IMG/VR virus record: IMGVR_UViG_3300047560_001714 | Span: 96,001 to 160,000 of that record | Reading direction: 5' to 3' (one strand) | Origin: a virus | DNA length: 64,000 bases | Shown: positions 7,544-57,560 of the stretch, piece after piece | Position numbering within the stretch: position 1 is the stretch's first letter | How the letters are laid out: each line of letters starts with the position of its first letter | Program-made: the position numbers and the translations under genes | The notes under the pieces: model-generated | The model's database searches: none | Told to the model about the DNA's origin: nothing | What the model saw: the letters and a program-made list of their open reading frames with translations, nothing else

Positions 7544-8209
7544 ATGACAACATTGACAAAAGAATTGGTATATACGCCGATGGTGCGTGTTTATAAAAAC
7601 ATGCTATTATCGATTTTAACGACCTTTGTCACTATTTTTTTCGTTGGAACACACTTTCCATCGTTTACATTTTTGTATAATGGTGCGATGTTATGGGTGA
7701 CAATATTATTACCACTCCCAGCAATATTTGCGGTATCATCTATTTTACAGAATTGCAAAACAGATGCGCTTAACTATGCTGCATTTCTAGGATTTGCTGT
7801 TTTAATGGGTCTGTCGTTGGCGCCTGTGGTAATAGTGTCCCCATTAGAATTAGTTGGAACCGCATTTGGTTCAGCGGCGTTACTGTTTACCACAATGGCT
7901 GCGTATGGTGCATATACCAAACGAGATTTATCTAGTTGGGGCAGTTTCTTAATGGTTGGATTAATTGCGTTAATTATAGCTAGTTTTATTAACATTTTTG
8001 TGTTAAACTCTATGCTAAATTTAATTATTAGTGGTATTACTATTATTGTGTTCTTAGGACTAACTGCGTATGATGTACAATCGATTCAAGAAATGATTCG
8101 TTATGAACAAAATACTGGTTTAGAATTAATGGGCGCATTATTGTTATACATGAATTTCATCAACTTATTCCTAAGTATCTTACGAATACTTAGTGAAACG
8201 CACGATTAG
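7544..8209 (+). CDS. Bax inhibitor-1/YccA family membrane protein
   Basis: ~7 hydrophobic segments; TKRDLS, GLTAYDVQ and LYMNFINLF motifs. Confidence 0.88.
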   Translation: MTTLTKELVYTPMVRVYKNMLLSILTTFVTIFFVGTHFPSFTFLYNGAMLWVTILLPLPAIFAVSSILQNCKTDALNYAAFLGFAVLMGLSLAPVVIVSPLELVGTAFGSAALLFTTMAAYGAYTKRDLSSWGSFLMVGLIALIIASFINIFVLNSMLNLIISGITIIVFLGLTAYDVQSIQEMIRYEQNTGLELMGALLLYMNFINLFLSILRILSETHD

Positions 8210-8218
8210 ATTACATTT

Positions 8219-8246
8219 AAAGCCCTGGAAATTTCCAGGGCTTTTT
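8219..8246 (+). terminator. intrinsic terminator
   Basis: aaagccctgga-aatt-tccagggcttttt. Confidence 0.85.
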
Positions 8247-8263
8247 ACTACACAGGAGATACT

Positions 8264-9076
8264 ATGAGAAAAAGTTATTGGTCATGTTCAGAGTTTGCTG
8301 ATTGGTTGCGTGGAACTAAAAAGTTACCGTATGGTACAAGCGATGAATGGGATGATTGGGATTCTTTAGCAAAAGCAAATAATCAAATTAGATTTTGGCT
8401 GGCTGAAACCGCATTGGACAAACTACAGGATATTATAATGTGGCCGATTGACACAATTTATAATATCAAATATTATTGTGTAAACCGATGGGTAACCAAA
8501 ACACACCAACTTACAGCTGCGCCGCAGGACATTAAACCAGGTGAATGGTGTGATGTAGGTAATAGGTTTTTGCCTTGTTTATTCAACGAATTAGTCAATT
8601 TTGTTGAGGTTGAGCAAGCGTGGCATCATATTGCGTGGGATGAGGATGCTAGTAAAAAATACGAGGCACCATTCAATGCTAGTGGATATTTTAATACTCG
8701 AACTTGGAGATGTCCGGAAGCTGGGTTAGAATATTTAGACTGGGCAAGTGAATTAAGATACGATGCCAATATAATGGCATCTGATCATCCTAAGTTTGGC
8801 CATCTTACTGACCAAGCATTAGCGGCACGTGAGATTAGAGAACTTTACTACTGGTGGAAAGTGCAACGCCCACAGCGGGTTGACCCATATGATGCCAGTG
8901 GGTTTAATGAGTTAATTGACCAGGATGCAAAATTTTTTACATCTTTGAAAAACATGGATAAAGACAAATCTAAAAAAGCTAATGAAATGATACGAGATTT
9001 GGAAGAACTTTACGAAAATGAGGATGAAGAAATGATGATTAGGCTAATAAAAATTAGGCAAGGATTGTGGACATGA
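8264..9076 (+). CDS. Trp-rich hypothetical protein
   Basis: SD AGGAG; 270-aa ORF overlapping the first radical SAM gene. Confidence 0.75.
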   Translation: MRKSYWSCSEFADWLRGTKKLPYGTSDEWDDWDSLAKANNQIRFWLAETALDKLQDIIMWPIDTIYNIKYYCVNRWVTKTHQLTAAPQDIKPGEWCDVGNRFLPCLFNELVNFVEVEQAWHHIAWDEDASKKYEAPFNASGYFNTRTWRCPEAGLEYLDWASELRYDANIMASDHPKFGHLTDQALAAREIRELYYWWKVQRPQRVDPYDASGFNELIDQDAKFFTSLKNMDKDKSKKANEMIRDLEELYENEDEEMMIRLIKIRQGLWT

Positions 9077-10446
9077 CTAATGAAGAAAGAATTAGAATTT
9101 TAGACGAAAAGCGAGAAAAAATCGATGAAATAAGTCCTAGTTTTTGCACAGCAAAATGGTTGCAAACAACTTTATATCTACAAAACGGGTATAACCATAG
9201 TTGCCACCATCCTAGTCCTCATAAGATTCCACTTGCTGAAATTAAAATAGATCCTGCGTCATTGCACAATAGCTCTTTTAAAAAGTCGCAACGTGTTATG
9301 ATGAAGCAAGGTCAACGACCGCCTGAATGTGAATATTGTTGGAAAATTGAAGACCTTAATAAAAATTATTTTTCTGACAGGCATTATAAAACATCTGATA
9401 CGTGGGCATGGCCCCGATTTGATGAAATTGCCGCATCTGATCCTACCATTAACGTATTTCCGAGTTACCTTGAAGTTAGTTTTAGTAATGCATGTAACTT
9501 TGCATGTGCGTACTGTTCTCCAGAAATAAGCAGTAAATGGATGGAAGACATAGTTGAGTACGGCCAATATCCAACTGAACATAGCAGTCATAGTCTAAGT
9601 TATTTAGAGAGTGTCGGTAAGATGCCGTATAAAAACAATGAAGAGAATCCATATGTAGATGCATTTTGGCAATGGTTCCCAGAAGCGTTACCTAACTTAA
9701 AAGTTCTTCGAATCACTGGTGGCGAGCCCACTATGGCAAAATCAATGTGGCGATTGTTAGATTACCTAATTGAGAATCCAAATTTAGATCTAAATATTGC
9801 GATTAACACAAATGCATGTGTTGACAATAAACTGATTGATAAACTAATCGAAAAGATCAACAAATTAACAGAGATTGGGATATCTGTTGATATATACACA
9901 AGTCTAGAAAGTATTGGTGAGCAAGCCGAATATGTGAGAGATGGGTTATCATACGATCAATGGTGTAGGAATGTACATCGTTTTCTCTCCGAAACTTCGT
10001 CAACAGTTTCATTAATGACAACTATTAATATATTGAGTCTTCCGACTTTTACGAAGTTCATCTCATTAATTATGGAATTTCGTAAAATTTACAATAAAGA
10101 TTTTGCATACAATCGAATCCCATTAAGTATAAATTACTTACGGTGGCCACCGCATTTGCAAGCAACGCTGTTGGATCAAGATACTAGGACAACTTATGCA
10201 ACTGAAATTGAAGAGTTTTGCGAACAATGGTTGAAATACTATAGTCCAGAACTTTATGCAAGAATTTACCTTGAAGAGTTTGATCAAATAAAAAGATTCT
10301 GTGATTATTTAAGAACATCCGTCACTGAATTAAATTACAGAAAAGACTTTGTGAACTATATAAATACATACGATTTTCGACGAGGAAAAAATTTCGCAGA
10401 ATGTTTTCCAGAATATAAAAACTTATTAGAGAAGTGGAATGCCTAA
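9073..10446 (+). CDS. N-terminal Twitch-domain radical SAM protein 1
   Basis: N-terminal FCTAKW...SCHHP...CEYC; CNFACAYC; ITGGEP. Confidence 0.92.
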   Translation: MTNEERIRILDEKREKIDEISPSFCTAKWLQTTLYLQNGYNHSCHHPSPHKIPLAEIKIDPASLHNSSFKKSQRVMMKQGQRPPECEYCWKIEDLNKNYFSDRHYKTSDTWAWPRFDEIAASDPTINVFPSYLEVSFSNACNFACAYCSPEISSKWMEDIVEYGQYPTEHSSHSLSYLESVGKMPYKNNEENPYVDAFWQWFPEALPNLKVLRITGGEPTMAKSMWRLLDYLIENPNLDLNIAINTNACVDNKLIDKLIEKINKLTEIGISVDIYTSLESIGEQAEYVRDGLSYDQWCRNVHRFLSETSSTVSLMTTINILSLPTFTKFISLIMEFRKIYNKDFAYNRIPLSINYLRWPPHLQATLLDQDTRTTYATEIEEFCEQWLKYYSPELYARIYLEEFDQIKRFCDYLRTSVTELNYRKDFVNYINTYDFRRGKNFAECFPEYKNLLEKWNA

Positions 10447-11890
10447 AAAACCAGAAGAAAGTTTAAAACAATACCGAATTCGTGTATTAGATAGCAAGAG
10501 CAATAGCTTTTGTGGTGCAAAGTGGTTTAATGCAACCACATGGTTAGGTAGCGGAACAACTGCTAGTTGTCATCACCCTCCTGCACACACTATTCCAATA
10601 TCCGAAGTAAACGAAAATTTTACAGCGATACATAACACCTCTCATAAAAAAGCAATGCGTCGAATGATGCAAGAAGGTGAAAGACCTCGTGAATGCGAAT
10701 ATTGCTGGAAGATGGAAGACATGGGTAAAGATGCTGTGAGTGATCGTGTTTTCAAAAGCATAATTTACACAGACGAAGAACTTGATATCGCATATAATAC
10801 ACATCAAGATGAAAACGTGCAACTTAAAACATTTGAAATCGCATTCGACCGAGTATGTAATTTAGCATGTTCGTATTGTAATGCATCTTTTTCAACTACA
10901 TGGGCTAAGGACATTAAAAACAATGGTCCTTATCAGAACTTAGTCAGTGACGGTGCAGGCGCGTATCATCATGCTGGAGATTGGGCTCAACCGTTTAAGG
11001 ATGATCAAGAAAATCCATACATACAAGCATTTTGGAAGTGGTGGGACAATGGTCTTTCGGACAGTTTGCAAGAACTAAGAATTACTGGCGGCGAACCTCT
11101 AATGAGTGGAAATACGTGGAAGTTAATGGATTGGTTCGAATCACAGAACTCAGATATTCGATTTGCGATTAATACCAACCTAATTGCAAAAAAAGATATT
11201 ATTGACGCACTAATAGATAAATCGCATAATATTAAGAATTTTGATTTATATACTAGCTGCGAATCAGTTGGTGCTCATGCTGAGTATATCCGAGATGGAT
11301 TAGATTACAATCTATGGTTAGCAAACTTGACTAGAGTTTTAACTGAAGCTCGTTATCATGAGGTAAATGTAATGATGACCATTAATAGTCTTTGCTTGTT
11401 TAGCATTACTGACTTTTTAGATGAAATTTATAAATTAAAAGAATTAACACAAAGTAAAAGTCCTGCTGTTAGTTTAAACTTACTTAGATTTCCTAGTTTT
11501 CAAAGTCCTCTCGCATTACCAACACACATAAAAGATGTATTGCATAAAAATCTTTCAGAATGGTACGAACAGAAAAAATCATTGCCGTATTGGGATACCT
11601 TTGAAAAAACAAATATTGAACGGTTAATCGATTACTTAATCACGGTTGATGCTCCACACCGCCGCACAAGTAATTCAATTACATTATGGAGAGATTTTAA
11701 AACATTCTATAAACAATACGATGTCCGTAGAAACAAAGATATAAATGTTTTCCCTCCGATATTAACCGAGTGGATTGAAAGTATTCCGGATACTGATTCT
11801 GCTATTCAAGAATTAGCTGAGAAAGAAGGTTGGATATTAACACCTGATAACAAAAATATAGATAACCCAACGGCAACATATGACAAATAA
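10439..11890 (+). CDS. N-terminal Twitch-domain radical SAM protein 2
   Basis: FCGAKW...SCHHP...CEYC; CNLACSYC; ITGGEP. Confidence 0.92.
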   Translation: MPKKPEESLKQYRIRVLDSKSNSFCGAKWFNATTWLGSGTTASCHHPPAHTIPISEVNENFTAIHNTSHKKAMRRMMQEGERPRECEYCWKMEDMGKDAVSDRVFKSIIYTDEELDIAYNTHQDENVQLKTFEIAFDRVCNLACSYCNASFSTTWAKDIKNNGPYQNLVSDGAGAYHHAGDWAQPFKDDQENPYIQAFWKWWDNGLSDSLQELRITGGEPLMSGNTWKLMDWFESQNSDIRFAINTNLIAKKDIIDALIDKSHNIKNFDLYTSCESVGAHAEYIRDGLDYNLWLANLTRVLTEARYHEVNVMMTINSLCLFSITDFLDEIYKLKELTQSKSPAVSLNLLRFPSFQSPLALPTHIKDVLHKNLSEWYEQKKSLPYWDTFEKTNIERLIDYLITVDAPHRRTSNSITLWRDFKTFYKQYDVRRNKDINVFPPILTEWIESIPDTDSAIQELAEKEGWILTPDNKNIDNPTATYDK

Positions 11891-13202
11891 AATCGGAAAA
11901 TATTTTTGTGTTGCTCCATGGACTCATACATATCTAAGTCCACAAAGTGAACGCCGTATATGTTGCGCAAGTCGGGAACCAGCAGCATGGCAACGGCAAT
12001 ACATAGATTCGAAAGGTACAGACTGCGATACATACTCTCCAAAAACTCTTGAAGAACATTGGAATAGCGAACACATGAAAAGTGTTCGCAAACGAATTCT
12101 AGCAGGGGAAAAAATCCCAGAATGTCAAGTATGCAATGATCAGTTACTAAACCTTCATACTTATAGACAATATTTTACAGATTCTTTATTTCCTCATAAA
12201 ATAGAAGATATTATAAATTCTACCGACGAAACCGGCTATACGACAATGAATCCGATTAGTTTTGATTATAGAATTTATAACTTATGTAATTTTAAATGTC
12301 GTATGTGTGGAGAACAGCTATCTAGTTCTTGGGAATCAGAAAAACGCCAGATGAATAACTGGAGTTCAATTCACGACAAGTGGATGATTTTAGAAAATAA
12401 ACAGTTAATCCAGGAGTTCCAGCAAGGAGTTGCTGAACAAGAATTATGGAAAAGTGTTAAAAATCATACTATAGAAGAAATTTATTGGGTAGGCGGTGAA
12501 CCATTGATGTACAACATTCACTGGGATGTTATGAACTACTTAGTCAAATCAGGGCATAGCAAGAACGTGGTTGTTAGATATAATACTAATTTAAGTCGTA
12601 CTAGTTATAAAGATAACAATTTATATGATTTACTAACTCATTTTAAGAGGGTGAATATATGTGCAAGCATAGATGCAACAAAAGAGATTGGAGAATGGAT
12701 ACGAACCGGTCTTAACTGGAACGAATGGCTCGACAACTTTAAATCCGGTATTTTTTTAAATGAAAAATATGGAATGGACGCAATGGTGTTAGATGTAACA
12801 TTAACATTACCTGGTTTACTAGGAATCAAGGATATGATCGATTTAGCGGTGGAATTAAATGTTAAAAGTTACGTGAAGATTACATTTGATTTTGATTCTA
12901 GTGCAATTATGAGTCCAATGTGTTTACCTAAAGAAATTTTAAATGAAATTTGTAATGATTTAATCGAATACGAAACCCAACATGGAAATTTATTAACTAG
13001 AATCTATAGTCAAACGTTCCGAGATATGCTGAATCGACCGACTTTTGAGGATAAATATCCTGATTATAGACAAGGACTAATTAAAGGTAAGGAACGATAC
13101 AAAAATATCGCAGAATTTAGGAAAGACGGCCAAATAGCTGTGACAATAGAAGATATCTTCAAAAAAAATAACAAAATTTTTAATTGGTGGAATTCTATAT
13201 GA
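11880..13202 (+). CDS. N-terminal Twitch-domain radical SAM protein 3
   Basis: CVAPW...ICC...CQVC; CNFKCRMC; VGGEP. Confidence 0.92.
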   Translation: MTNKIGKYFCVAPWTHTYLSPQSERRICCASREPAAWQRQYIDSKGTDCDTYSPKTLEEHWNSEHMKSVRKRILAGEKIPECQVCNDQLLNLHTYRQYFTDSLFPHKIEDIINSTDETGYTTMNPISFDYRIYNLCNFKCRMCGEQLSSSWESEKRQMNNWSSIHDKWMILENKQLIQEFQQGVAEQELWKSVKNHTIEEIYWVGGEPLMYNIHWDVMNYLVKSGHSKNVVVRYNTNLSRTSYKDNNLYDLLTHFKRVNICASIDATKEIGEWIRTGLNWNEWLDNFKSGIFLNEKYGMDAMVLDVTLTLPGLLGIKDMIDLAVELNVKSYVKITFDFDSSAIMSPMCLPKEILNEICNDLIEYETQHGNLLTRIYSQTFRDMLNRPTFEDKYPDYRQGLIKGKERYKNIAEFRKDGQIAVTIEDIFKKNNKIFNWWNSI

Positions 13203-14356
13203 GTACCTTATGTCCTCTACCGTGGATACATTTAGCAAGTCACCCAGAAGGAAAGGTTACACTATGTTGTATTAGTGAACATGCTTGTAATATGAGTGCT
13301 GCTCGAACAAACGGCGAGACCTTAAATTTAAACAAACACTCTGTATTTGAAATTGTAAATAACGATTACTTTAAAAAAACAAGACTAGAAATGTTAGCCG
13401 GAGTCAAACCTACCGCGTGTTCTCGATGTTATCGAGAGGAAGAGTTAACCGGAAAAAGTAAGCGATTATCCGAAAAATTAAAATTTAGTGTCGATTATTC
13501 AACTAATACAGACGGATCTATTATTCCTAATTTAAAATTTATCGAACTTCGACTAGGTAACCTATGTAACGTTAAATGCAGAACATGCAATCCTGCATCT
13601 AGCACACAGTGGATACAAGAATATAATAAATTACAACAGGAATTAAATTTTGTAGCAAACTATGACACTAAGATTAATACAGATTGGACACAAAGTGACA
13701 AGTTTTGGGATGATTTATTAGAAAATAGTAAGGACATAGAATTAATTTATATTAACGGTGGGGAGCCCACGTTAGTTGAGAAACATTGGACTTATCTTGA
13801 AAGATTGATCGACGCAAATTTAAATGAACAAGTTACTCTTTGGTATAACATTAATATGACAAATGTACCAGACAATCTTGTTAATATCTGGAGACAATTT
13901 AAGAAAGTTATTGTTCACGGGTCAATCGACGATATTAACGAACGCAACTCATATATTAGAAAAGGTACTAATTGGAATTCTGTAGAATCTAACTTAATTA
14001 AGTTAAAATCTTTAGATTGGATCGAGTTGCATGTCACTCAAACCGTCAGTTGGTTAAACATTTACTATGTTCCCGAATTTAATGATTATTTTGAATCACA
14101 CCAGATAAATACGCATATTAATTTAGTCTATGATCCGATTTTTTTAAGCCCATTTGTAATTCCAAATTATGCTAAAGAAGAATTATTTAAAAAATTTAGT
14201 GGAACAAAATTTAACTGGCTTATACCGTTAATTAAGACAGGAGAAGACTTAGAAATATTCAAGCAAGGCGTTGAATATAACAGATGGTTAGACCGATCAA
14301 GAAACGAAAATTTTCAAACACATTTTTCCGAATGGACAACTATTTTAAGGATATAA
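13199..14356 (+). CDS. N-terminal Twitch-domain radical SAM protein 4
   Basis: CPLPW...LCC...CSRC; CNVKCRTC; NGGEP. Confidence 0.92.
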   Translation: MSTLCPLPWIHLASHPEGKVTLCCISEHACNMSAARTNGETLNLNKHSVFEIVNNDYFKKTRLEMLAGVKPTACSRCYREEELTGKSKRLSEKLKFSVDYSTNTDGSIIPNLKFIELRLGNLCNVKCRTCNPASSTQWIQEYNKLQQELNFVANYDTKINTDWTQSDKFWDDLLENSKDIELIYINGGEPTLVEKHWTYLERLIDANLNEQVTLWYNINMTNVPDNLVNIWRQFKKVIVHGSIDDINERNSYIRKGTNWNSVESNLIKLKSLDWIELHVTQTVSWLNIYYVPEFNDYFESHQINTHINLVYDPIFLSPFVIPNYAKEELFKKFSGTKFNWLIPLIKTGEDLEIFKQGVEYNRWLDRSRNENFQTHFSEWTTILRI

Positions 14357-14357
14357 C

Positions 14358-15215
14358 ATGACACAATGCCCCAATAACGACACCCTCTCTGAATTAAAAC
14401 TAAGGAGTCCATTACTAGCGAAAACTCCATCAGACATACTGTATTACAGTAACATGCAAAATCGAGCCGAATTAGCTCAAGGTTTCCCACCACCGGGATT
14501 TCACACGTTTATAAACACACAAGAAAAAAACAGAAGTAATAGTAACTGGGAAGAGCCATTCTCGTATTATATCAATGAGCTCGGCTTTAGAGGTAATTAT
14601 CCCCGAACTGATATAAAAAATATTATAGGATTTTTTGGATGTAGTTGTACATTTGGTGAAGGATTGCCAGAAACTAGGCTCTTTTCATCTATTGTCGGAT
14701 CACACAGAAATTATCCGATACTTAATTTAGGAATGCCAGGTACTGGATGTCATCGAATTGCCATGACTTTTTCGGCTGCTGCAAACATATGGAAAATAGA
14801 TACTGCTATAGTAACATTACCGAATTACAGCCGATTTAATTATGTATCTAAATACAATTTAATGTATTCGATTTTACCAGCACATCCTACTATGCCCGAT
14901 GAAGCTGAAACTGTTAGGCTTGACCTTGTTAAACATTTTAGTGAAGAATATTTTATATCTGCGGCTAAAGATGCGATTACATGGATCGTTACAACTGCAC
15001 GTCAGAAAAAGATTAAACTCATCTTAGGTTCTTGGGATCCGCATACATTAAAAATAATCGAAACTGTAACTGAATACAACCCACCCTTTTTTAATATGTA
15101 CCCTATAGGTTCTACACCTGCTAGAGATACGATTCATCCAGGAACTGCGGCTAACCGGATGTATGCAGAAACGCTAATAAATTACATGGATAACACCAAC
15201 TATGTGCAGACCTGA
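14358..15215 (+). CDS. SGNH-hydrolase-like protein
   Basis: FFGCSCTFG (block I), NLGMPG (II), RDTIHPG (V, DxxH). Confidence 0.7.
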   Translation: MTQCPNNDTLSELKLRSPLLAKTPSDILYYSNMQNRAELAQGFPPPGFHTFINTQEKNRSNSNWEEPFSYYINELGFRGNYPRTDIKNIIGFFGCSCTFGEGLPETRLFSSIVGSHRNYPILNLGMPGTGCHRIAMTFSAAANIWKIDTAIVTLPNYSRFNYVSKYNLMYSILPAHPTMPDEAETVRLDLVKHFSEEYFISAAKDAITWIVTTARQKKIKLILGSWDPHTLKIIETVTEYNPPFFNMYPIGSTPARDTIHPGTAANRMYAETLINYMDNTNYVQT

Positions 15216-16020
15216 TAAAATAAGTATCGCTATAATTACATTTCATAATGACTTTGAGTTGCTAAAAAAATTATTAAATTCAATATATGCTTACTGGGAC
15301 CCGGTAGAAATAGATTCTATTAAAATTGTATTAAATGACGGTCCTGAATATTACTCTCAATTTAATGAGTTAATCGACGAGGTCACGGTTCCTGACTTTA
15401 AAATAGATAAAGTATTCCATTATGAATTAGCACCAAAAGTATTTTTGTTAAATTGGACTAGCCAACAATTATTTAAATGTGTAATATCTAAAAAAATTAC
15501 AACAGAATGGTATTTAATAAACGATTGTAAAGATACTTATAATGCTCCTACCGGAATTACCGATTGCTTTACTCAAGACGGAAAAGCTATAATGCATCTC
15601 GATCACAATCGGTATACCGATCAAAATGAACCAATGACTCATTGGGGGTTTGGACCGTTTAGTTCGGCATTTCGAAACTCGTGTCTTCTTTTTAATGTTG
15701 ACCCCGAAGATTGTAAAAATTATCACTTACCATTTTTAACTCCGTTTTTAGTTAAAACATCTATGATGCAAGATATGGTACAAGATGTTAAAAGTATGAT
15801 GCAAGGAATGTTTCCGTTTTTATTTGCGATAAATCTTGACGGTGCGTTCTTTGTAACTGAATTTTTACTATACAACGCATATTGTTATTCAAAAAACAAA
15901 TTAACTGATTATGCCGACTGGGAGATAAATTATCGAAAATTTTTTAGTTCGGTGAGCCAATCTATTGAACAACGGAGTACAACTGGGGTTAGGATTATGG
16001 ATTTTTCTAGAAATGAGTAA
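15202..16020 (+). CDS. putative GT-A fold nucleotide-sugar transferase (DUF6492-like)
   Basis: IAIITFHNDF N-terminal strand; WTSQQLFK...WYLINDCKD; TPFLV. Confidence 0.55.
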   Translation: MCRPDKISIAIITFHNDFELLKKLLNSIYAYWDPVEIDSIKIVLNDGPEYYSQFNELIDEVTVPDFKIDKVFHYELAPKVFLLNWTSQQLFKCVISKKITTEWYLINDCKDTYNAPTGITDCFTQDGKAIMHLDHNRYTDQNEPMTHWGFGPFSSAFRNSCLLFNVDPEDCKNYHLPFLTPFLVKTSMMQDMVQDVKSMMQGMFPFLFAINLDGAFFVTEFLLYNAYCYSKNKLTDYADWEINYRKFFSSVSQSIEQRSTTGVRIMDFSRNE

Positions 16021-16816
16021 ACTTTTATTAAATCAACTGCAACCATCAAAAATACAAATCACTGACTTGTACATTTTAAATCATTTTGTGCATTGTTATT
16101 CACGCATGAATAATTTATTGGGTAAATCTTATTCAACTCGTGAATTGCTTCTTAGCGAGCCAAATGCAGTAAACGATCCTTGGGAGTATCGAATAAATCA
16201 ATATGGATATCGCGGCGACGATTGGGAATTCACATCGCCAACCATACCATTTTTTGGATGTAGCTTTGTATTTGGAATTGGTGTAAACATTCCGGTTTCT
16301 GAATTAGTTCAATCTCGTATTAACGTGCCATGTTATAATTTAGGTCAACCAGGTGCAAATATTCTTAATATTTTAAAAACATTTATATCATTTAATAATA
16401 TATTTCCGACTACGTATGCTATTATTGTATTACCTGGATTTCACAGACTTCATTTACCTAAATATAACGATATAACTAGAGAATGGGAATATCATAATAT
16501 CCATCCCATGCATGGGAGACTATTCGATGAATCAATAAGAATTATTACATCGGATGTTATATTAACATACGTTATTGATTACATAGATTGGGCATCTGCA
16601 CAAGCCCAAAAGTCTAATACAACAATTCTTTGGTCGGCATGGGATTCTGAAGTATTTGAACTGTTATGTGAGTTGTTTCCAAAAGAATATGTTTTTGACC
16701 CACCAAACCAAGTTGATTACGGACGAGACGCCGGACACTATGGACCAATTACTGTAAAGAACTGGGCAGATATTATATGTAATAAGTATCAGACACAACC
16801 ACCTGAATCAATATGA
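16013..16816 (+). CDS. SGNH-hydrolase-like protein (paralog of 14358)
   Basis: FFGCSFVFG, NLGQPG, RDAGHYG. Confidence 0.7.
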   Translation: MSKLLLNQLQPSKIQITDLYILNHFVHCYSRMNNLLGKSYSTRELLLSEPNAVNDPWEYRINQYGYRGDDWEFTSPTIPFFGCSFVFGIGVNIPVSELVQSRINVPCYNLGQPGANILNILKTFISFNNIFPTTYAIIVLPGFHRLHLPKYNDITREWEYHNIHPMHGRLFDESIRIITSDVILTYVIDYIDWASAQAQKSNTTILWSAWDSEVFELLCELFPKEYVFDPPNQVDYGRDAGHYGPITVKNWADIICNKYQTQPPESI

Positions 16817-18087
16817 CTATACAAATTAACTCAATTAAAACATTTAAAAAAACAGTTTGTCCAATACCTTGGATGCATTTAGCATTCGAACCAAGTGGTA
16901 AAGTTATTCCTTGTTGTTTAACCTCAGTTCATAATTACTTTGCTGGAGACCTCACCACTCAATCTATTGATGAAATCTGGAATAGTGATAATATGAAACA
17001 ACTTCGCAAACAGATGATTAATGGTGTTAAACCAGATGTATGTCGTAAATGTTTTGAACGGGAAGCAGTTACGGGTGAAAGTAGTAGAATACATCATGAA
17101 AGATATTTCCCAGATGTAATTGAACGCATACCAGAAATTACACTAGAAGATGGAACTTGTACTGAAATGAAACTTAAATATTGGGACTTTCGTTTTAGTA
17201 ACTTATGCAATTTCAAATGTCGTAGTTGTTGTGCCAGATACAGTTCATCTTGGGTACCAGATGCAAAAAAACTTGGATTAATTAATGAACAAGAAAAAGT
17301 ATGGTATATACAATCAGTCAATGAACGCGCAAATTTTGATTTTCTAGCAGAACAAGTGAAATATGTTGAAAAGATTTACTTTGCCGGTGGTGAGCCATTA
17401 TTAATGGATGAACATTGGCAAATATTAGACATGTTAACTGAAAATAAACGGTTTGATGTGACTTTAAATTATAATACTAACTGTTCGACATTAACTCATA
17501 ACAACAAAAATGTGATTGATTATTGGAAACAATGGGATTTTGGTAAAATAGAAATATGGGCTAGCATTGATGAAATTGGTGAACGTGCTGAGTTAATTCG
17601 TTCTGGTACTGTTTGGAGTAAGGTTGAAGAAAATCTTAAAGAATTAACAAAGTATGATAACATAATTGTAAAACCAGGTATTACCGTTGGCGCTTGGAAT
17701 GTTTCTAGACTACCAGAAATAATCACCTATTTAAATGAACTAGGTGTACTAAGAGAAAAACTTTATTATAGTAATTTTTTTATAAATTTAATAGAACACC
17801 CAACATATTATCATGTTCACATTCTCCCAGCAGATACTAGAAAAGATATTGTGAATAAACTGGAATCATTTATCCTGGATTATAACACCAACTATAATAC
17901 TAATATTACTAACTTATTTACACATATAATTCATGAATTAAAAAAACCACAATCGTTCAACGATACTAAGAGATTTGTATCTCTTACTGACAAACTTGAC
18001 AATATACGAGATGAAGATTTGTATAAAATAATACCAGAAATGCAAGTATTACTTCCACAGATTGAACCACCAAACAATGACATCTAA
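16813..18087 (+). CDS. N-terminal Twitch-domain radical SAM protein 5
   Basis: CPIPW...PCC...CRKC; CNFKCRSC; FAGGEP. Confidence 0.92.
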   Translation: MTIQINSIKTFKKTVCPIPWMHLAFEPSGKVIPCCLTSVHNYFAGDLTTQSIDEIWNSDNMKQLRKQMINGVKPDVCRKCFEREAVTGESSRIHHERYFPDVIERIPEITLEDGTCTEMKLKYWDFRFSNLCNFKCRSCCARYSSSWVPDAKKLGLINEQEKVWYIQSVNERANFDFLAEQVKYVEKIYFAGGEPLLMDEHWQILDMLTENKRFDVTLNYNTNCSTLTHNNKNVIDYWKQWDFGKIEIWASIDEIGERAELIRSGTVWSKVEENLKELTKYDNIIVKPGITVGAWNVSRLPEIITYLNELGVLREKLYYSNFFINLIEHPTYYHVHILPADTRKDIVNKLESFILDYNTNYNTNITNLFTHIIHELKKPQSFNDTKRFVSLTDKLDNIRDEDLYKIIPEMQVLLPQIEPPNNDI

Positions 18088-19315
18088 AATATGCCCAATA
18101 CCTTGGGTTCACTTAAATATTGATCCAAACGGGGATGTATATCCTTGTTGTCTAATGTCACATACTGGATACATCGTTGGGAATGTACATTCCCAACCAA
18201 TTTCACAAATATGGAACAGCGATGGTATGAAAACATTGCGAAAACAATTCATGAATGGTGAGGAACCTAGTGTTTGTTCTACCTGTTTTGATAGAGAACG
18301 GGTTACTGGTGTAAGTAATAGGATACATAGACTTAGAAATTTTCAAAACACCATTGATAATGTTTCATCTACCACACTCCCAGATGGTACCTGCACTGAA
18401 ATGCAACTAAAATATTGGGATTTTCGTTTTAGTAATTTGTGTAATTTTAAATGTCGAAGTTGCGGTCCGAAATACAGTTCATCATGGATACCAGATGCGG
18501 TAAAACTTGGAAGATCAACCTCTGATTCAAAAGTTACACAAGTATCCTCGATTTATGATATTAATACATATGAATTTCTTGAATCCCAAATTGAATACGT
18601 TGAGAGAATCTATTTTGCGGGTGGCGAACCCCTACTAATGGCTGAACATTGGCAAATTCTAAAATTATTGTTTAAACGTAAGAAATTCGATGTTGAAATA
18701 ATGTATAATACAAATTGTTCGACTCTTACCTTCGGTGGTGAACACGCAATAGATTATTGGAAACATTGGCAGTTCAAAAAATTAGATATTTCCGCTAGTA
18801 TTGACGAAATCGGTGTTCGGGCAGAGTTAATTCGGTCGGGAACTAATTGGAAAAAAGTTGAAGCTAATTTAATAACCATTACTAAACATGAAAATATCAT
18901 TATTCGCCCGAGTATAACAGTTGGTGCGTGGAATGTATTCCGATTACCAGAAATACTAACTCATTTGGTTGATATCGGAGTCATTAAACATTACGAAAAC
19001 CTAGCAAAGTATACTAATTTTCACTTAAACTTACTACAATATCCATCCCACTATCATGTAAGTATTCTTCCAAATGAATACAAAGATGAAATTATTATTA
19101 AACTAACCAATTTCATATCAGAGTTTAATAGTATGTATGAAACAGAAATCGACAGTATGTTTTTACAGATTTTTCATGAATTATCAAAACCATTTGATGA
19201 GACTGCGGCAAAATCTTTCATCAAATTATCAACGACACTTGATAACGTAAGAAATGAAAATATATTTACTATTATACCGGAATTAAATGTCATAAAGGAA
19301 TATATTGACAACTAA
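18077..19315 (+). CDS. N-terminal Twitch-domain radical SAM protein 6
   Basis: CPIPW...PCC...CSTC; CNFKCRSC; FAGGEP. Confidence 0.92.
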   Translation: MTSKICPIPWVHLNIDPNGDVYPCCLMSHTGYIVGNVHSQPISQIWNSDGMKTLRKQFMNGEEPSVCSTCFDRERVTGVSNRIHRLRNFQNTIDNVSSTTLPDGTCTEMQLKYWDFRFSNLCNFKCRSCGPKYSSSWIPDAVKLGRSTSDSKVTQVSSIYDINTYEFLESQIEYVERIYFAGGEPLLMAEHWQILKLLFKRKKFDVEIMYNTNCSTLTFGGEHAIDYWKHWQFKKLDISASIDEIGVRAELIRSGTNWKKVEANLITITKHENIIIRPSITVGAWNVFRLPEILTHLVDIGVIKHYENLAKYTNFHLNLLQYPSHYHVSILPNEYKDEIIIKLTNFISEFNSMYETEIDSMFLQIFHELSKPFDETAAKSFIKLSTTLDNVRNENIFTIIPELNVIKEYIDN

Positions 19316-19333
19316 TATAACGAATGGTATACT
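19305..19333 (+). promoter_or_regulatory. sigma70-type promoter
   Basis: TTGACA-17 bp-TATACT with extended TG. Confidence 0.8.
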
Positions 19334-22104: not shown

Positions 22105-22442
22105 AAGAAATAGAAAATATAATTTTAAAACGAGAACTATCTATTAATGAAATTAATGATAGAAGACGTCGATGGCTATATGCTAGTTCGTTAGTATTCT
22201 TTACATTAGTTGTAACCATATTTAAATGGCCAAGTATTTCCGACATACATGAACCATCAATATGGTGGGTTGTTGTTGCAGTTCTCTTAGTGGTTAGTGT
22301 TAATTGGTGGTATTGGACATTACATGTTATTAACACATTACTAGAAAATCAACGATCCCAAATTGAGGTATTAAAAGTAATAATAGATAATTTACATGAA
22401 ATAGAGCACGATATTAACGATGATAATAAAAAAGGGGCATAA
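22101..22442 (+). CDS. two-TM hypothetical protein
   Basis: ATGA-coupled; two hydrophobic helices. Confidence 0.65.
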   Translation: MKEIENIILKRELSINEINDRRRRWLYASSLVFFTLVVTIFKWPSISDIHEPSIWWVVVAVLLVVSVNWWYWTLHVINTLLENQRSQIEVLKVIIDNLHEIEHDINDDNKKGA

Positions 22443-22454
22443 CGCCCCTTTTTT
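22428..22454. terminator. bidirectional terminator between convergent genes
   Basis: aaaaaaggggc-ataac-gcccctttttt. Confidence 0.88.
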
Positions 22455-22788
22455 ATTTTTTCGCTTTAGTACGAGGTTTTTTTACAGGTGGTTCATTAAC
22501 AATACTAACCACCTCGGCTGATACTGTCTCCACTTTTTTTCGTGTTTTACGAGTTTTAGGGGCAGTCTCGGTAATTGGTTCCACCGTTTCTTTTGGTTTA
22601 GGTGTACGCGGCTTGCTTACCGCTTTGACTGGTTTCTCGACTGCAGCAACCGTTGGTTTAGCTGCTTTCGGGCTTGATACGCCTGGTTTTTTAGTAACAG
22701 CCACTTTTTTTACTTTCTTTGGTGGTACTGGGGCAGGCGTTGGTGCAGGTAGCAACTTACCAAACAATCTTTTTATAAAATTAAACAT
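22453..22788 (-). CDS. Lys/Pro/Ala-rich basic low-complexity protein
   Basis: SD AGGAG and ATAAATAC motif upstream on the minus strand. Confidence 0.7.
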   Translation of the reverse strand: MFNFIKRLFGKLLPAPTPAPVPPKKVKKVAVTKKPGVSSPKAAKPTVAAVEKPVKAVSKPRTPKPKETVEPITETAPKTRKTRKKVETVSAEVVSIVNEPPVKKPRTKAKK

Positions 22789-23183: not shown

Positions 23184-26100
23184 ATGACAAAACAGGTAAT
23201 TGATATTGGTGTACAGGGGAATGATGGAACTGGTGACAGTATTCGTGAATCATTCAGAAAAGTAAACGAAAATTTTGATGAAATATATGCTATATTTGGG
23301 GCAAGTGGCACGATTTCATTCTCTAGTTTACAAGATGGCGTTGCATATGATGCAAATCAACTCATTATGGGGGACTCAACTGGGGGGACTTTATCCGCGA
23401 GAGATTTAATTGCGGGGGTTGGTATAGAAATTGAACAAAGTGATACCGATTTAACTATTTCTGCAGCTGCAGCAAATTTACAATCAGACCATACCCCATC
23501 ATTATCAGGACCATTAAATGCTTCTGGGGTAACCATCGGCAACCTTAGATATCCATCCGTTGAAGCAGTCAATGATTATAACGCAGTATGGGCACCTAAC
23601 ACAACCACAATTGAACAACTACCAGCAACTGTTGGATATACAAATAACACGTTTGTTGCTAAAACAACAGATGGAATCGTTGGTACTATAACAACTGATG
23701 GAATCATCGAGGCACCATTACGTGTTAGAGATGAACCAATCTTAGCGGATACAACTGATCCCACCTACGATGATACCTTACTTGGAAACTATCTATCAAA
23801 TGAAGTAATGCCTAGAAAAGACACCGTTCGTCGTTCTGGCGACACCATGACTGGTGTTTTGACATTGAGTGATCATCCTGCACCACTTAGTGGGTACGGT
23901 ACGCCATTAAATGCGGACGATCTTCAAGCTGCAACCAAGTTTTATGTTAATAATAGCACGTTTTCTAGTAATATTAACTTATATGTTTCTGCATCAACTG
24001 GTGATGATCTACAAACGAATACACCTCCTGGTAAAGAAGGTAGATTTTGGAACTATGCTTATAAATCATTAGGTGCCGCCGCATTACAAGCTGATAACTT
24101 AATGGAACTTGCTAGTCAAGAACCTGGCCCATATCGCCAACGACTATCATATACAATTGGTGCCGATCAATCTTTTTCAACTGTACAATCAGCTACGTTA
24201 TCTGGTGGGAATGTTGCATTATCTGGATATACGGATGCATATGATCTATTACTAGCAAATAAGTCATTTATCCAATCTGAAGTTATTGCATATATTAACA
24301 AAAAATATGTAAATGATTTCAAATATGATAAAGTTAAATGTCAACGTGACGTTCAGTTAATTTTAAGTGCAATTGGGGACGACTTACTATTTGGAACGAC
24401 CTTCAATTCAACCCGTGCTGCAAACGAGTATTTTAATGCAACATCCGCAAAAGTCATAACAAATCAACTTGCACAAACTATAGATGCCATAAATTTTGTA
24501 AAAAATCAAGTGTTAGGGTTTTCTTACAACAATACTAACGTAATAACCTATGTTACTAATGTAATGACTGCATTAAAATACGATGTTGTATTTTTAGGAA
24601 ACTATCAAAGTATTCAAGTTGCTAGACAATTTGCATCGGCCGGAACTAACCTTGGTGTAACAGAAATTACTGGTATCTTAAATGATATTTCTGATAAATT
24701 AGAAGTTTTGCCAACTATAGCTGCATCGGCACAAATTGTTGGGAACGTAAAATCAAATATTCAAAGCATAATTGATATAATAACCGATGGATTTTACCCA
24801 ACTTTCTTATTCCCAGAAAAACCAAATACCACAATTGGCCAACTAAGTTCACGCGACTTAATTATTAATAATATTGAATTTATCCAAGCTGAATTAATCG
24901 GATATTTCAACGCGGAATATCCAACCTTGTTTATATCCCGTGAAACCATATCTTTAGAAATAGAAAAATTAGTATATGATATTGTTTATGATGTTTTATA
25001 TGGTGGAAACACCCAATCCCTAAACTGGGCAACATACCAAGGGTTATCAGCCAATACCGCAGCAGTGGCCGGGGCGTTGACATACGTTAACACATTAATG
25101 CAAGGTATTATTAATTCAACCACCCTTGTTGTATACCAACAAGGTGTAAAACAGTACCGTAATGAAACTTATGTCGGGGCAGAAACAACGTCGTCCGCTA
25201 TTTCAACTAGTATTACGTTAATTAAAAACAAGATTGTAAACAATACGTCCCCAACTATAGTTTATCCTATATATACAGACGTTGGCGATATATTAACTAA
25301 TGCATTCAATTCTATTACCACTAATACTAGCATATATGCACAAGCTGCAGGTGTTTATATTAATACCCATTATCCATCTGTAAATGATCCAGTAGTATTG
25401 ACAACAATAACAAATCTATTTGATATAATGATCGATGGGTTAACACTTGGTACCACATCGGTGCCAACTTATACTAGCCCAGCTGGAACTATGCCTGGCG
25501 TTACCCATGCTAGAGACGCATTATTGGCAAATCTATCATTTATCTCGGATGAGGTATCAGGATGGATTGCAACAACATACCCAACTTTTACTTATAACGG
25601 AAACCCAGTCACCGGATTGGCTAAATCTAAGCGTGATATTGCTTATATAATCGAAGCTATTTGTTATGATATTACATATGGTGGGACCACTGGAAACTCA
25701 GCAACTGTACACGCAAGTAATCAATATTGGACTGAGAATCCAACCAATGTATTCACATTAAATCTGATATCACCAGCTATATGCAGTGCAGCTCTTACAT
25801 ATATGCAAGGAATAGTTAAGTCCGTTGCAAAAAATGAAACAGTTACAACAACACACACCGCAACCCCTCAAGTACGCAATAGTGTTTGGGCGGATGGTAT
25901 CGCAGTGGCCTCACATACAGATACCTTGATCCAAATAATTGTAAATAGTATCGGTGGAACTCGTACCACAACCGCAATCGAACCAGTTACAACCGGATAC
26001 GATGATAACAACCTTGCGGTTCGTGCATTAATCAATACCAATGCAGCTACTATTGCGCAAAATACCACCAATTACTTGGATGATACTTATAAAGGTGGGT

Positions 26101-57532: not shown

Positions 57533-57560
57533 TTGACATCTAACAAATTTTTGATATAAT
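57533..57560 (+). promoter_or_regulatory. sigma70-type promoter
   Basis: TTGACA-16 bp-TATAAT with extended TG. Confidence 0.8.

What the first reader, a model, noticed from the sequence alone, without database searches (positions are those of the whole stretch)
9073..19315. 10-kb coupled operon of six N-terminal-Twitch radical SAM enzymes: a candidate unknown phage biosynthetic pathway
Seen: six paralogs, each with CxxxCxxC and GGEP, and with an auxiliary Fe-S Twitch half-domain at the N-terminus (C..PW...CC...CxxC) instead of the usual C-terminal position. All nine genes in the run overlap or abut. The block sits just upstream of the virion and tail genes. Established: an N-Twitch radical SAM family of unknown function is recognised mainly from uncultured aquatic sequences, and Twitch enzymes such as BtrN oxidise sugars. 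Inference: a multi-step radical pathway that modifies a glycan, nucleotide-sugar or virion/host surface. It would be an Fe-S-costly investment, so it is presumably under selection.
Basis: partly seen in the sequence, partly recalled or inferred. Interest (0 to 1): 0.85.

Follow-up and report, generated by a model that had tools for sequence, protein, structure and literature searches.

The report
Phage radical-SAM plus esterase-like tailoring operon
An uncultured giant phage carries a tightly packed operon of six intact iron-sulfur "radical SAM" enzymes, two esterase-like proteins and one sugar-transferase-like protein; the same gene modules recur in many aquatic phages, and they most likely edit a sugar-containing molecule, but nobody has tested the chemistry.

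Summary
Six + strand genes (9073-14356 and 16813-19315) each match NCBIfam NF033640 (N_Twi_rSAM) full-length at 303-369 bits against a cut-off of 170. All keep CxxxCxxC, GGEP and four N-terminal Cys, which align with BtrN's C-terminal twitch ligands (E 1.3e-7).

The three middle genes are two paralogous SGNH-like proteins (GCS...DxxH) flanking a DUF6492 protein. The DUF6492 model has a GT-A fold, closest to Stealth sugar-1-phosphate transferases and GT6 enzymes.

All junctions overlap by 4-14 nt or leave a 1-nt gap, and the upstream gene 8264-9076 is coupled too.

The genes are co-conserved as modules. R1-R2-R3-R4-S1 and R1-R2-S1-D-S2 recur in the same order on other contigs. Of 80 IMG/VR loci fetched only by the SGNH-like motif, 58 have an N-twitch radical SAM gene directly adjacent. 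The same pairing occurs in rare Bacteroidota genomes, beside GT8 and capsule-type transferases.

The island sits in a variable hot-spot upstream of the tail-fibre genes.

The best reading is soluble sugar or glycan tailoring (about 0.45). Substrate and target remain unknown.

This scan has found similar islands before, in at least 24 other genomes. This one is therefore a new member of a known but uncharacterised kind.

The parts
8264..9076 (+). g8264, a 270-aa protein with no family match. It is the conserved left border of the island and is translationally coupled to R1.
   Evidence: No Pfam, NCBIfam or PHROG match. Orthologues at 52-55% identity lie upstream of the R5-type gene in L015 and L018. 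Its TGA stop overlaps the R1 ATG.
8448..8476 (+). Sigma-70-like promoter candidate (TTGACA-17-TATTAT) inside g8264. It may drive the operon.
   Evidence: 11 of 12 consensus positions match. Sites this good number 12 on the + strand and 0 on the - strand, against about 2.5 per strand in shuffles. Its function is inferred.
9073..10446 (+). R1, an N-twitch radical SAM enzyme (CHH subtype)
   Evidence: NF033640 at 326 bits. Orthologues at 60-61% identity in L047-L049. Forms its own clade, sister to R2.
10439..11890 (+). R2, an N-twitch radical SAM enzyme (CHH subtype)
   Evidence: NF033640 at 303 bits. Orthologues at 66-71% identity in L047-L049, and 58% identity to Ralstonia phage RsoM2USA gp202.
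11880..13202 (+). R3, an N-twitch radical SAM enzyme
   Evidence: NF033640 at 306 bits. A 76% orthologue lies in the same position in L047.
13199..14356 (+). R4, an N-twitch radical SAM enzyme (the ORF is open from 13184)
   Evidence: NF033640 at 334 bits. A 68% orthologue lies in L047, next to an S1 orthologue.
14358..15215 (+). S1, an SGNH-like protein with GCS in place of GDS and a DxxH motif near the C-terminus
   Evidence: Invariant G94, S96, G100, G102, N123, G125 and D257, with H260 in at least 90% of 25 sequences. hhalign against the bacterial GDSL neighbours gives probability 90.5%, E 1.4e-6. It has no Pfam match of its own.
15202..16020 (+). D, a DUF6492 protein with a GT-A fold, like a sugar or sugar-phosphate transferase
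   Evidence: PF20102 at 34.7 bits against a gathering score of 22.9. The model has pLDDT 92.6. Foldseek top matches are GlcNAc-1-phosphotransferase 7s6n (E 2e-7, TM 0.51), CpsY 8j2n, the GT6 ABO transferases and LARGE1.
16013..16816 (+). S2, an SGNH-like paralogue of S1 (the ORF is open from 15965)
   Evidence: 28% identity to S1, E 2e-20, with the GCS and DxxH motifs aligned. DUF6473 at 23.2 bits, below its cut-off of 27. Orthologues at 38-39% identity follow D in L048 and L049.
16813..18087 (+). R5, an N-twitch radical SAM enzyme and the constant member of the island in related phages
   Evidence: NF033640 at 369 bits. There are 1978 database clusters at E<=1e-5, and the best 120 are 60-73% identical. 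In L010, L011, L015, L017 and L018 it lies between the g8264 and g19362 orthologues where those are on the contig. The model has pLDDT 88.8.
18077..19315 (+). R6, an N-twitch radical SAM enzyme and an older sister of R5 (the ORF is open from 18062)
   Evidence: NF033640 at 358 bits. 56% identity to R5. It forms a separate branch inside the R5/R6 clade.
19305..19333 (+). Sigma-70-like promoter (TTGACA-17-TATACT with an extended TG) that starts the next transcription unit, marking the right border of the island

Best explanation
**What it is.** This is a soluble, cytoplasmic, phage-encoded tailoring cassette built from reusable modules: [R1-R2], [R3-R4], [S1-D-S2] and [R5, R6]. It sits in a variable hot-spot between a conserved 270-aa gene and the genes that lead into the tail-fibre block. 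It most likely acts on a sugar-containing substrate.

**Proposed mechanism (all inferred).**
- D, a GT-A fold enzyme closest to Stealth hexose-1-phosphate transferases and retaining GT6/GT8 enzymes, takes a host nucleotide-sugar. It transfers the sugar, or the sugar phosphate, to an acceptor.
- Each of the six radical SAM enzymes cleaves SAM at its CxxxCxxC cluster to make a 5'-deoxyadenosyl radical, which abstracts a hydrogen from an unactivated C-H.
- The fully Cys-ligated N-terminal twitch cluster takes up the substrate electron, as in BtrN. The outcomes could be oxidation, epimerisation, dehydration or C-C bond formation at different positions.
- The two SGNH-like proteins keep an intact Ser/Asp/His set and remove or move an acyl (ester) group on the same substrate.

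**What is shown and what is not.** Shown: family membership, intact motifs, the GT-A fold, gene coupling, conservation of modules, and the radical SAM-SGNH pairing in both phages and bacteria. Inferred: every chemical step, the sugar nature of the substrate, and the target (virion, host envelope or a free metabolite).
For: **Family and motifs.**
- All six genes are full-length N_Twi_rSAM with every cluster ligand kept.
- The twitch is homologous to that of BtrN, an alcohol-oxidising aminocyclitol enzyme, with all four Cys aligned.

**The middle genes.**
- D has a GT-A fold. Its top matches are sugar-1-phosphate transferases and GT6 enzymes.
- Other members of the D family are fused to a PIG-L sugar de-N-acetylase.
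- S1 and S2 keep SGNH blocks I and V.
- They are homologous to the GDSL proteins that flank N_Twi_rSAM genes in Bacteroidota MAGs.
- Those bacterial loci also hold GT8, a Caps_synth/DXD transferase, AsnB and DUF6056.

**Co-conservation.**
- Collinear orthologous modules occur on L047-L049 and on the P0126 contig.
- 58 of 80 S-family loci have an adjacent N-twitch radical SAM gene. After removing near-duplicates the figure is 39 of 63.
- A natural R1-type::R5-type fusion protein exists.

**Sibling islands and solubility.**
- Sibling islands carry a HAD+NTP_transferase, FkbM-type and other methyltransferases, and NodU/CmcH-type carbamoyltransferases.
- All nine proteins lack a hydrophobic segment.
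- The best structural neighbour of the R5 core is BlsE (Z 13.3). Viperin and DesII, which also act on nucleotide or sugar substrates, rank high.
Against: - No substrate-defining feature was found. The structural matches cover only the generic radical SAM core, and peptide-modifying SkfB, anSME and SuiB score within about 1.5 Z of BlsE.
- The 188-kb genome fragment holds no nucleotidyltransferase or GT2. It holds only a truncated epimerase at its very end, so any sugar donor would have to come from the host or from the unsampled half of the genome.
- DUF6492 is rare beside the S family (1 of 80 loci). The glycosyl-transfer step is therefore not part of the conserved core.
- Some relatives of S1 sit among 2OG-Fe(II) and AspH-like oxygenases, which are typical protein modifiers.
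- No experimental work on the family was found in the searchable literature.
Confidence: 0.45

Rival explanations
1. The enzymes modify proteins or peptides. The radical SAM enzymes would install cross-links, epimerisations or oxidations on a virion protein, such as the neighbouring fibre proteins, or on an unrecognised precursor peptide. The SGNH-like proteins would act as esterases or peptidases.
For: - Most characterised SPASM/twitch enzymes act on peptides.
- SkfB (Z 12.6), anSME (12.3), SuiB (11.8), CteB (5wgg, 11.6) and EpeE (11.3) are near-ties with the best structural match.
- The island abuts the fibre and baseplate genes.
- Sibling islands and S1-family loci contain AspH-like and prolyl-hydroxylase-like oxygenases.
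Against: - There is no RRE/PqqD domain in the enzymes or anywhere in the genome fragment.
- The genes overlap, so the operon has no room for a precursor gene.
- No conserved small gene lies next to R1-R2 in the collinear loci.
- The GT-A fold partner, the carbamoyltransferase and the nucleotidyltransferase neighbours fit sugars better.
Confidence: 0.2
2. The enzymes modify nucleotides or DNA. They would act on NTPs, dNTPs or phage DNA, in a viperin-like or hypermodification-type reaction, to evade host defences.
For: - Viperin is the top Foldseek and sequence-profile match for the radical SAM core.
- The operon may be driven by a host-type sigma-70-like promoter, the same type that precedes the DNA polymerase gene, so early expression is possible.
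- Replication and nuclease genes lie upstream.
Against: - The viperin matches cover only the cluster-binding N-terminus and the core, at TM about 0.32.
- No base-modification enzymes (hydroxymethylase, dNMP kinase, DNA glycosyltransferase families) were seen in the operon.
- The conserved partner is an SGNH-like protein, and the bacterial counterparts sit beside capsule-type transferases.
Confidence: 0.1
3. The enzymes remodel lipids or the membrane. The SGNH-like proteins would act as GDSL-type lipases or acyltransferases, and the radical SAM enzymes would modify acyl or isoprenoid chains of host lipids.
For: - GDSL/SGNH proteins include lipases.
- The bacterial partners begin with a hydrophobic stretch, judged by eye from the first 25 residues printed.
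- There are weak matches to the tetraether lipid synthase family (NF045702; 7tom/7tol).
Against: - The matches to Tes are far below its cut-off.
- The phage proteins are all soluble.
- No lipid-metabolism neighbours were seen in the phage loci examined.
Confidence: 0.07

Closest known systems
NCBIfam NF033640, N_Twi_rSAM (twitch domain-containing radical SAM protein); a family with no characterised member
   Same: All six proteins match end to end, well above the curated cut-off, and have the N-terminal twitch Cys set, CxxxCxxC and GGEP.
   Different: The family name gives no function. These six copies belong to five deep orthologous groups (22-56% identity), and R1 and R2 carry a CHH variant of the second twitch motif.
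BtrN, the 2-deoxy-scyllo-inosamine dehydrogenase of butirosin biosynthesis (PDB 4m7s/4m7t)
   Same: The twitch domain is homologous (E 1.3e-7) with all four auxiliary-cluster Cys aligned. It suggests the same working logic, with the auxiliary cluster acting as electron sink during substrate oxidation; that logic comes from established knowledge of BtrN.
   Different: In BtrN the twitch is C-terminal; here it is N-terminal. The proteins here are 390-483 aa against about 250 aa, with an extra helical C-terminal region. The substrate is unknown.
Hypervariable 'host recognition cluster' of pelagimyophages and cyanomyophages (Zaragoza-Solas et al. 2020, PMC7029224)
   Same: Both are variable islands beside tail-fibre genes that hold glycosyltransferases and radical SAM gene cassettes differing between close relatives. 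Here, island content differs between contigs that share the flanking genes.
   Different: That cluster is defined in T4-like phages between VrlC and gp14. This phage is a jumbo phage whose R2 groups with that of the XacN1/RsoM2USA-type phage RsoM2USA. The paper does not analyse the radical SAM family or its SGNH partner.
Stealth hexose-1-phosphate transferases (GNPTAB, M. tuberculosis CpsY) and retaining GT6/GT8 glycosyltransferases
   Same: The DUF6492 model shares their GT-A fold (E 2e-7 to 1e-5, TM about 0.5, 240-260 aligned columns).
   Different: Sequence identity is only 9-16%. Only 2 of 62 family members touch Stealth_CR2, and weakly. A metal-binding DxD motif is not clearly present.
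Tandem N_Twi_rSAM + GDSL loci in Bacteroidota MAGs (L012, L014, L041-L046)
   Same: They show the same pairing of N-twitch radical SAM genes with homologous SGNH-like proteins, often in several copies, beside glycosyltransferases.
   Different: The bacterial SGNH proteins are about 400 aa, use GDS rather than GCS, and begin with a hydrophobic stretch. In bacteria the SGNH genes are the multiplied partner; in the phage the radical SAM genes are. Only 3 of 301 sampled Bacteroidota genomes reach the family cut-off.

Membership tests
NF033640 N_Twi_rSAM | Full-length match above the curated cut-off (170 bits) | tested here: met
   303-369 bits for all six, covering model positions 1-2 to 394-397 of 398.
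NF033640 N_Twi_rSAM | N-terminal twitch (half-SPASM) domain with four Cys ligands, followed by the CxxxCxxC radical SAM core | tested here: met
   C16, C35, C77, C80, C132, C136 and C139 are invariant. Pfam SPASM matches at residues 10-86 in four of the six. All four Cys align with those of BtrN.
Radical SAM superfamily | Binds [4Fe-4S] and reductively cleaves SAM | not testable with these tools
   Only the sequence motifs (CxxxCxxC, GGEP) and the predicted core fold could be checked.
BtrN-type twitch dehydrogenases | Twitch domain C-terminal to a compact radical SAM core | tested here: not met
   The twitch is at residues about 10-90, before the core. The resemblance is in the parts and the likely logic, not in membership.
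SGNH/GDSL hydrolase superfamily (S1, S2) | Block I Gly-x-Ser nucleophile and block V Asp-x-x-His | tested here: met
   G94, S96 and D257 are invariant, and H260 is kept in at least 90% of 25 sequences. The Asp of GDS is replaced by Cys (GCS).
SGNH/GDSL hydrolase superfamily (S1, S2) | Significant match to a curated SGNH/GDSL model or to a solved SGNH structure | tested here: inconclusive
   - There is no Pfam GDSL match. DUF6473 scores 23.2 bits, below its cut-off of 27.
- The profile search of the PDB gives only E 0.38-0.88, to two GDSL esterases.
- hhalign against bacterial proteins that do match Lipase_GDSL_2 gives 90.5%, E 1.4e-6.
- No structure model of my own was made.
GT-A fold nucleotide-sugar transferases (D) | GT-A fold | tested here: met
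   The model has pLDDT 92.6. Foldseek gives 329 PDB matches at E<=1e-3; every row listed is a GT-A sugar or sugar-phosphate transferase.
GT-A fold nucleotide-sugar transferases (D) | DxD metal/nucleotide-binding motif | tested here: inconclusive
   D108 and K110 are nearly invariant, in the stretch 'NDCKD' that follows a strand. I could not place this as the DxD motif without coordinates.
Stealth sugar-1-phosphate transferases (D) | Stealth conserved regions CR1-CR4, detectable by sequence | tested here: inconclusive
   Only 2 of 62 family members touch Stealth_CR2, at E about 2e-3. The structural similarity is the top hit.
RiPP radical SAM maturases | RRE/PqqD-like recognition domain and a nearby precursor peptide gene | tested here: not met
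   No PqqD match in the proteins or in the 188-kb record. The genes overlap, leaving no intergenic space.
Host recognition cluster (PMC7029224) | Non-syntenic island beside tail-fibre genes, holding glycosyltransferase and radical SAM cassettes that vary between relatives | tested here: met
   The flanking genes are conserved while island content differs in L010, L011, L015, L017 and L018. Fibre and baseplate genes lie downstream.
Host recognition cluster (PMC7029224) | Position between VrlC and gp14 of a T4-like myophage | not tested
   I did not look for VrlC or gp14. The phage belongs to another lineage, and only a 51% fragment is held.

The most novel reading that the evidence does not exclude
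The N-twitch radical SAM enzymes and the GCS-type SGNH-like proteins may form an obligate two-component catalyst of a kind not yet described. For example, the radical enzyme could act on a substrate held as an acyl-enzyme on the SGNH serine. Alternatively, it could chemically mature the invariant Cys next to that serine, as anSME matures sulfatases. This would explain why the two families stay adjacent across hundreds of phage loci and in Bacteroidota, whatever else the island contains.
Probability: 0.15. Interest if true: 0.8.

Novelty: new member of a known kind. Interest (0 to 1): 0.55.

Why it matters
Radical SAM enzymes are costly and oxygen-sensitive, yet aquatic jumbo phages carry them by the handful. 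One family, N_Twi_rSAM, has no characterised member.

This locus is a compact example with clean boundaries: ten coupled genes, five orthologous groups of the family, one GT-A partner and two SGNH partners.

The analysis adds two usable facts. First, the family's most faithful partner is an SGNH-like protein, in phages and in bacteria. Second, cultured phages carry related genes: Ralstonia phage RsoM2USA gp202 is a close orthologue at 58% identity to R2, and Vibrio phages K566 and K567 carry distant family members at 23-27% identity. The chemistry could therefore be tested by genetics and biochemistry.

If the product decorates virions or host surfaces, it bears on host range and superinfection exclusion in the ocean. 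If it is new radical chemistry on sugars, it is of enzymological interest.

Tried and rejected
- **Nucleotide search.** A megablast of the 10-kb block against 50,697 phage records found nothing.
- **Pattern scans.** The scan with D in IMG/VR found no relative. The six-paralogue alignment was too diverse for a genome scan.
- **Sequence searches of the PDB.** D alone and the D family profile gave nothing significant. The S-family profile gave only E 0.4-0.9.
- **Fold searches with the R5 model.** They returned only the generic radical SAM core, so they cannot separate sugar from peptide enzymes.
- **T4-type late promoter.** TATAAATA is under-represented, with 3 sites against 12.5 expected, so I did not use it to time expression.
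- **Fe-S and sugar-donor genes.** No IscA-type Fe-S carrier, NTP_transferase or GT2 was found in the 188-kb record. The record is only about half a genome.
- **N-terminal extension of R5 fusions.** The extension fused to some R5 orthologues (P0311, P0312, P0315) looked GT-like by eye, but it has no Pfam, PHROG or PDB match, does not align with DUF6492, and is absent from this window. I make no claim about it.
- **Recurrent unknown neighbours.** Those of the S family had no Pfam or PHROG annotation.
- **Recent acquisition.** I rejected this idea. Island GC is slightly lower (0.337 against 0.368), but GC3 matches the rest of the phage.
- **Literature.** Searches for the family, for DUF6492/DUF6473, for N-terminal twitch or SPASM, and for jumbo-phage radical SAM islands found no functional study.
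- **Tree.** It is the quick IQ-TREE result because the careful search did not finish. Only the starred clades are used.

Full report
**Observation**

The window is bases 96001-160000 of a 187,935-base IMG/VR virus record that CheckV rates about 51% complete, so the source is a jumbo phage fragment.

Between 9067 and 19315 the + strand carries nine long ORFs. Six of them match NCBIfam NF033640 (N_Twi_rSAM) end to end at 303-369 bits, against a cut-off of 170. I call these R1-R4, R5 and R6. None of 14 control genomes reaches that cut-off.

An alignment of the six shows invariant C16, W20, C35, C77 and C80, then C132/C136/C139 and GGEP. The same columns stay invariant or nearly so when 31 relatives are added.

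A profile of that wider alignment matches the C-terminal twitch of BtrN (4m7s residues 163-248) with its own N-terminal positions 7-90, at E 1.3e-7. All four auxiliary-cluster Cys are in register.

With ATG starts, every junction overlaps by 4-14 nt or leaves a 1-nt gap. The upstream gene 8264-9076 ends in an ATGA overlap with R1.

**The middle genes**

S1 (14358-15215) and S2 (16013-16816) are paralogues: 28% identity, E 2e-20.
- Across 25 family members the SGNH block I Gly-x-Ser and the block V Asp are invariant, and the block V His is kept in at least 90%. The usual Asp of GDS is replaced by Cys.
- They have no significant Pfam or PDB match.
- Their profile aligns with bacterial GDSL-family proteins at 90.5% probability, E 1.4e-6.

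D (15202-16020) is a DUF6492 protein.
- Its family is small, with 180 representative clusters among 1.84 billion proteins.
- The family is mostly viral, and one form is fused to a PIG-L sugar de-N-acetylase.
- A confident model (pLDDT 92.6) has a GT-A fold. It is closest to the Stealth GlcNAc-1-phosphotransferase and to M. tuberculosis CpsY, then to GT6 blood-group transferases and LARGE1.

All nine proteins lack hydrophobic segments.

**Are the genes co-conserved?**

Yes, as modules.
- Contig L047 carries orthologues of R1 (61%), R2 (71%), R3 (76%), R4 (68%) and S1 (44%) in the same order.
- L048 and L049 carry R1, R2, S1, D and S2 in the same order.
- Another contig has S1 (62%), then DUF6492, then orthologue-sized genes of the two that follow the island here.

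In close relatives that share the flanking genes, only the R5-type gene is constant, at about 65% identity. The rest of the island differs.
- One relative has other radical SAM classes plus an AspH-like gene.
- Another has DUF6071, two more radical SAM genes, a HAD+NTP_transferase and two methyltransferases.

A quick maximum-likelihood tree puts the six genes in five well-supported orthologous groups, with R1 sister to R2. Ralstonia phage RsoM2USA gp202 falls inside the R2 group. Pairwise identities are 22-56%. Third-position GC matches the rest of the phage, so the set is old, not a recent burst.

**The strongest new result**

I scanned IMG/VR with only the S-family motif. That gave 287 loci, of which the best 80 were kept.
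- 66 of the 80 hold a full-length N-twitch radical SAM gene within 9 kb.
- 58 have one directly adjacent, usually overlapping, and most hold 2-6 such genes.
- After collapsing near-identical copies, 39 of 63 S clusters have one adjacent and 50 have one in the flank.

The pairing is not confined to phages. Three Bacteroidota MAGs carry 5-11 matches to the family model (2-5 each at or above its cut-off), some in tandem. The loci examined hold GDSL proteins: directly beside the ~420-aa genes in L012, L014, L045 and L046, and beside the tandem pair in L043. They sit beside GT8, a Caps_synth/DXD transferase, asparagine synthase and DUF6056. The family is rare there, with 3 of 301 sampled genomes above the cut-off.

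Natural fusions join an R1-type to an R5-type enzyme, and join R5 to a second, shorter radical SAM domain. Other recurrent neighbours of the S family are three further radical SAM classes, a NodU/CmcH-type carbamoyltransferase (16 loci) and unannotated proteins.

**Transcription**

Near-perfect sigma-70-type promoters number 12 on the + strand and none on the - strand, against about 2.5 per strand in shuffles. Several sit exactly in front of genes, including the DNA polymerase gene.

One lies inside g8264 at 8448-8476, after a hairpin I read by eye at 8219-8247. The next lies at 19305-19333, and the first strong + strand terminator is at 22425-22457. Host-type, possibly early, expression is an inference only. 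The T4 late motif is under-represented.

**Interpretation**

The evidence shows a functional, selected enzyme set whose conserved heart is N-twitch radical SAM plus SGNH-like protein.

I favour sugar or glycan tailoring (about 0.45) for these reasons:
- the GT-A partner;
- the PIG-L fusion;
- the nucleotidyltransferase, carbamoyltransferase and methyltransferase neighbours in sibling islands;
- the capsule-type context in bacteria;
- the BtrN-type twitch.

The rivals stay open because the fold searches return only the generic core. BlsE scores Z 13.3, SkfB 12.6, PFL-AE 12.6 and anSME 12.3, and viperin tops Foldseek. Against a peptide-maturation role, there is no RRE/PqqD domain anywhere in the record and no space for a precursor gene. 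Nothing identifies the target.

**Comparison with what is known**

The proteins are members of NF033640, a family with no studied member that I could find.

The island matches the published picture of hypervariable, fibre-adjacent clusters holding glycosyltransferases and radical SAM cassettes in pelagimyophages (PMC7029224), though in a different phage lineage.

Earlier notes of this scan describe similar islands in at least 24 other genomes. I used them as leads. The HRC paper I read myself. The SGNH and GT-like readings of the middle genes I re-derived from my own searches and models.

The locus is therefore a new member of a known but uncharacterised kind.

Noticed in passing
L007:36-1764 (G000:90036-91764, about 4-6 kb before the window start): There is a seventh radical SAM gene (270 aa) in the usual layout: CxxxCxxC at the N-terminus and a twitch/SPASM half-domain at the C-terminus. 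Its start overlaps the end of a HisC-like PLP aminotransferase gene (310 aa). An oxidising twitch enzyme next to a transaminase recalls the BtrN/BtrS logic for making amino-cyclitols or amino-sugars.
   Followed up: partly
window 782-60798, + strand: Twelve sigma-70-type promoter matches with at most one mismatch lie on the + strand and none on the - strand, against about 2.5 per strand in shuffles. Several sit directly upstream of genes, for example at 57533 before the DNA polymerase gene and at 19305 before the gene at 19362.
   Followed up: partly
P0310, P0314, P0324, P0311, P0312, P0315 (metagenome proteins): R5 orthologues occur naturally fused to three kinds of partner: an R1-type enzyme, a second short radical SAM domain, and an unannotated ~530-660-aa N-terminal region. 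Part of that region is multi-copy in related phage loci and absent from this window.
   Followed up: partly
L041 7139-11670, L042, L043 7002-9968 (Bacteroidota MAGs): These loci hold tandem arrays of two or three ~480-510-aa relatives of N_Twi_rSAM, at or just under the family cut-off. In L041 they lie beside asparagine synthase and a Caps_synth/DXD glycosyltransferase; in L043 beside a GDSL protein (L042 is a 4.5-kb contig holding only the three genes). They form a separate deep clade.
   Followed up: partly
window 7544-8209: A 221-aa multi-pass membrane protein has weak matches to the YccA/BAX-inhibitor-like FtsH modulator family (E 5e-8, far below the cut-off). Its orthologue is conserved in relative L018.
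   Followed up: no
G000:3-212 (start of the virus record, outside the window): The C-terminal end of an NAD-dependent epimerase/dehydratase gene is cut by the contig end. It is the only nucleotide-sugar enzyme found among the five sugar-related families searched in the record.
   Followed up: no
window 23184-34235 and 45578-47845: There is a 3683-aa fibre- or virion-like protein just downstream of the island, and a Lon-like ATP-dependent protease (phrog_4871, E 4e-243).
   Followed up: no
L031/L032 (contigs with an S1 relative at 41% identity): Here the S-family gene sits among several 2OG-Fe(II)/prolyl-hydroxylase-like and AspH-like oxygenases, tryptophan halogenases, a B12-type radical SAM gene, DUF6071 and an Mtd_N fibre protein. 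This is a different, oxygenase-rich kind of island using the same SGNH-like part.
   Followed up: no
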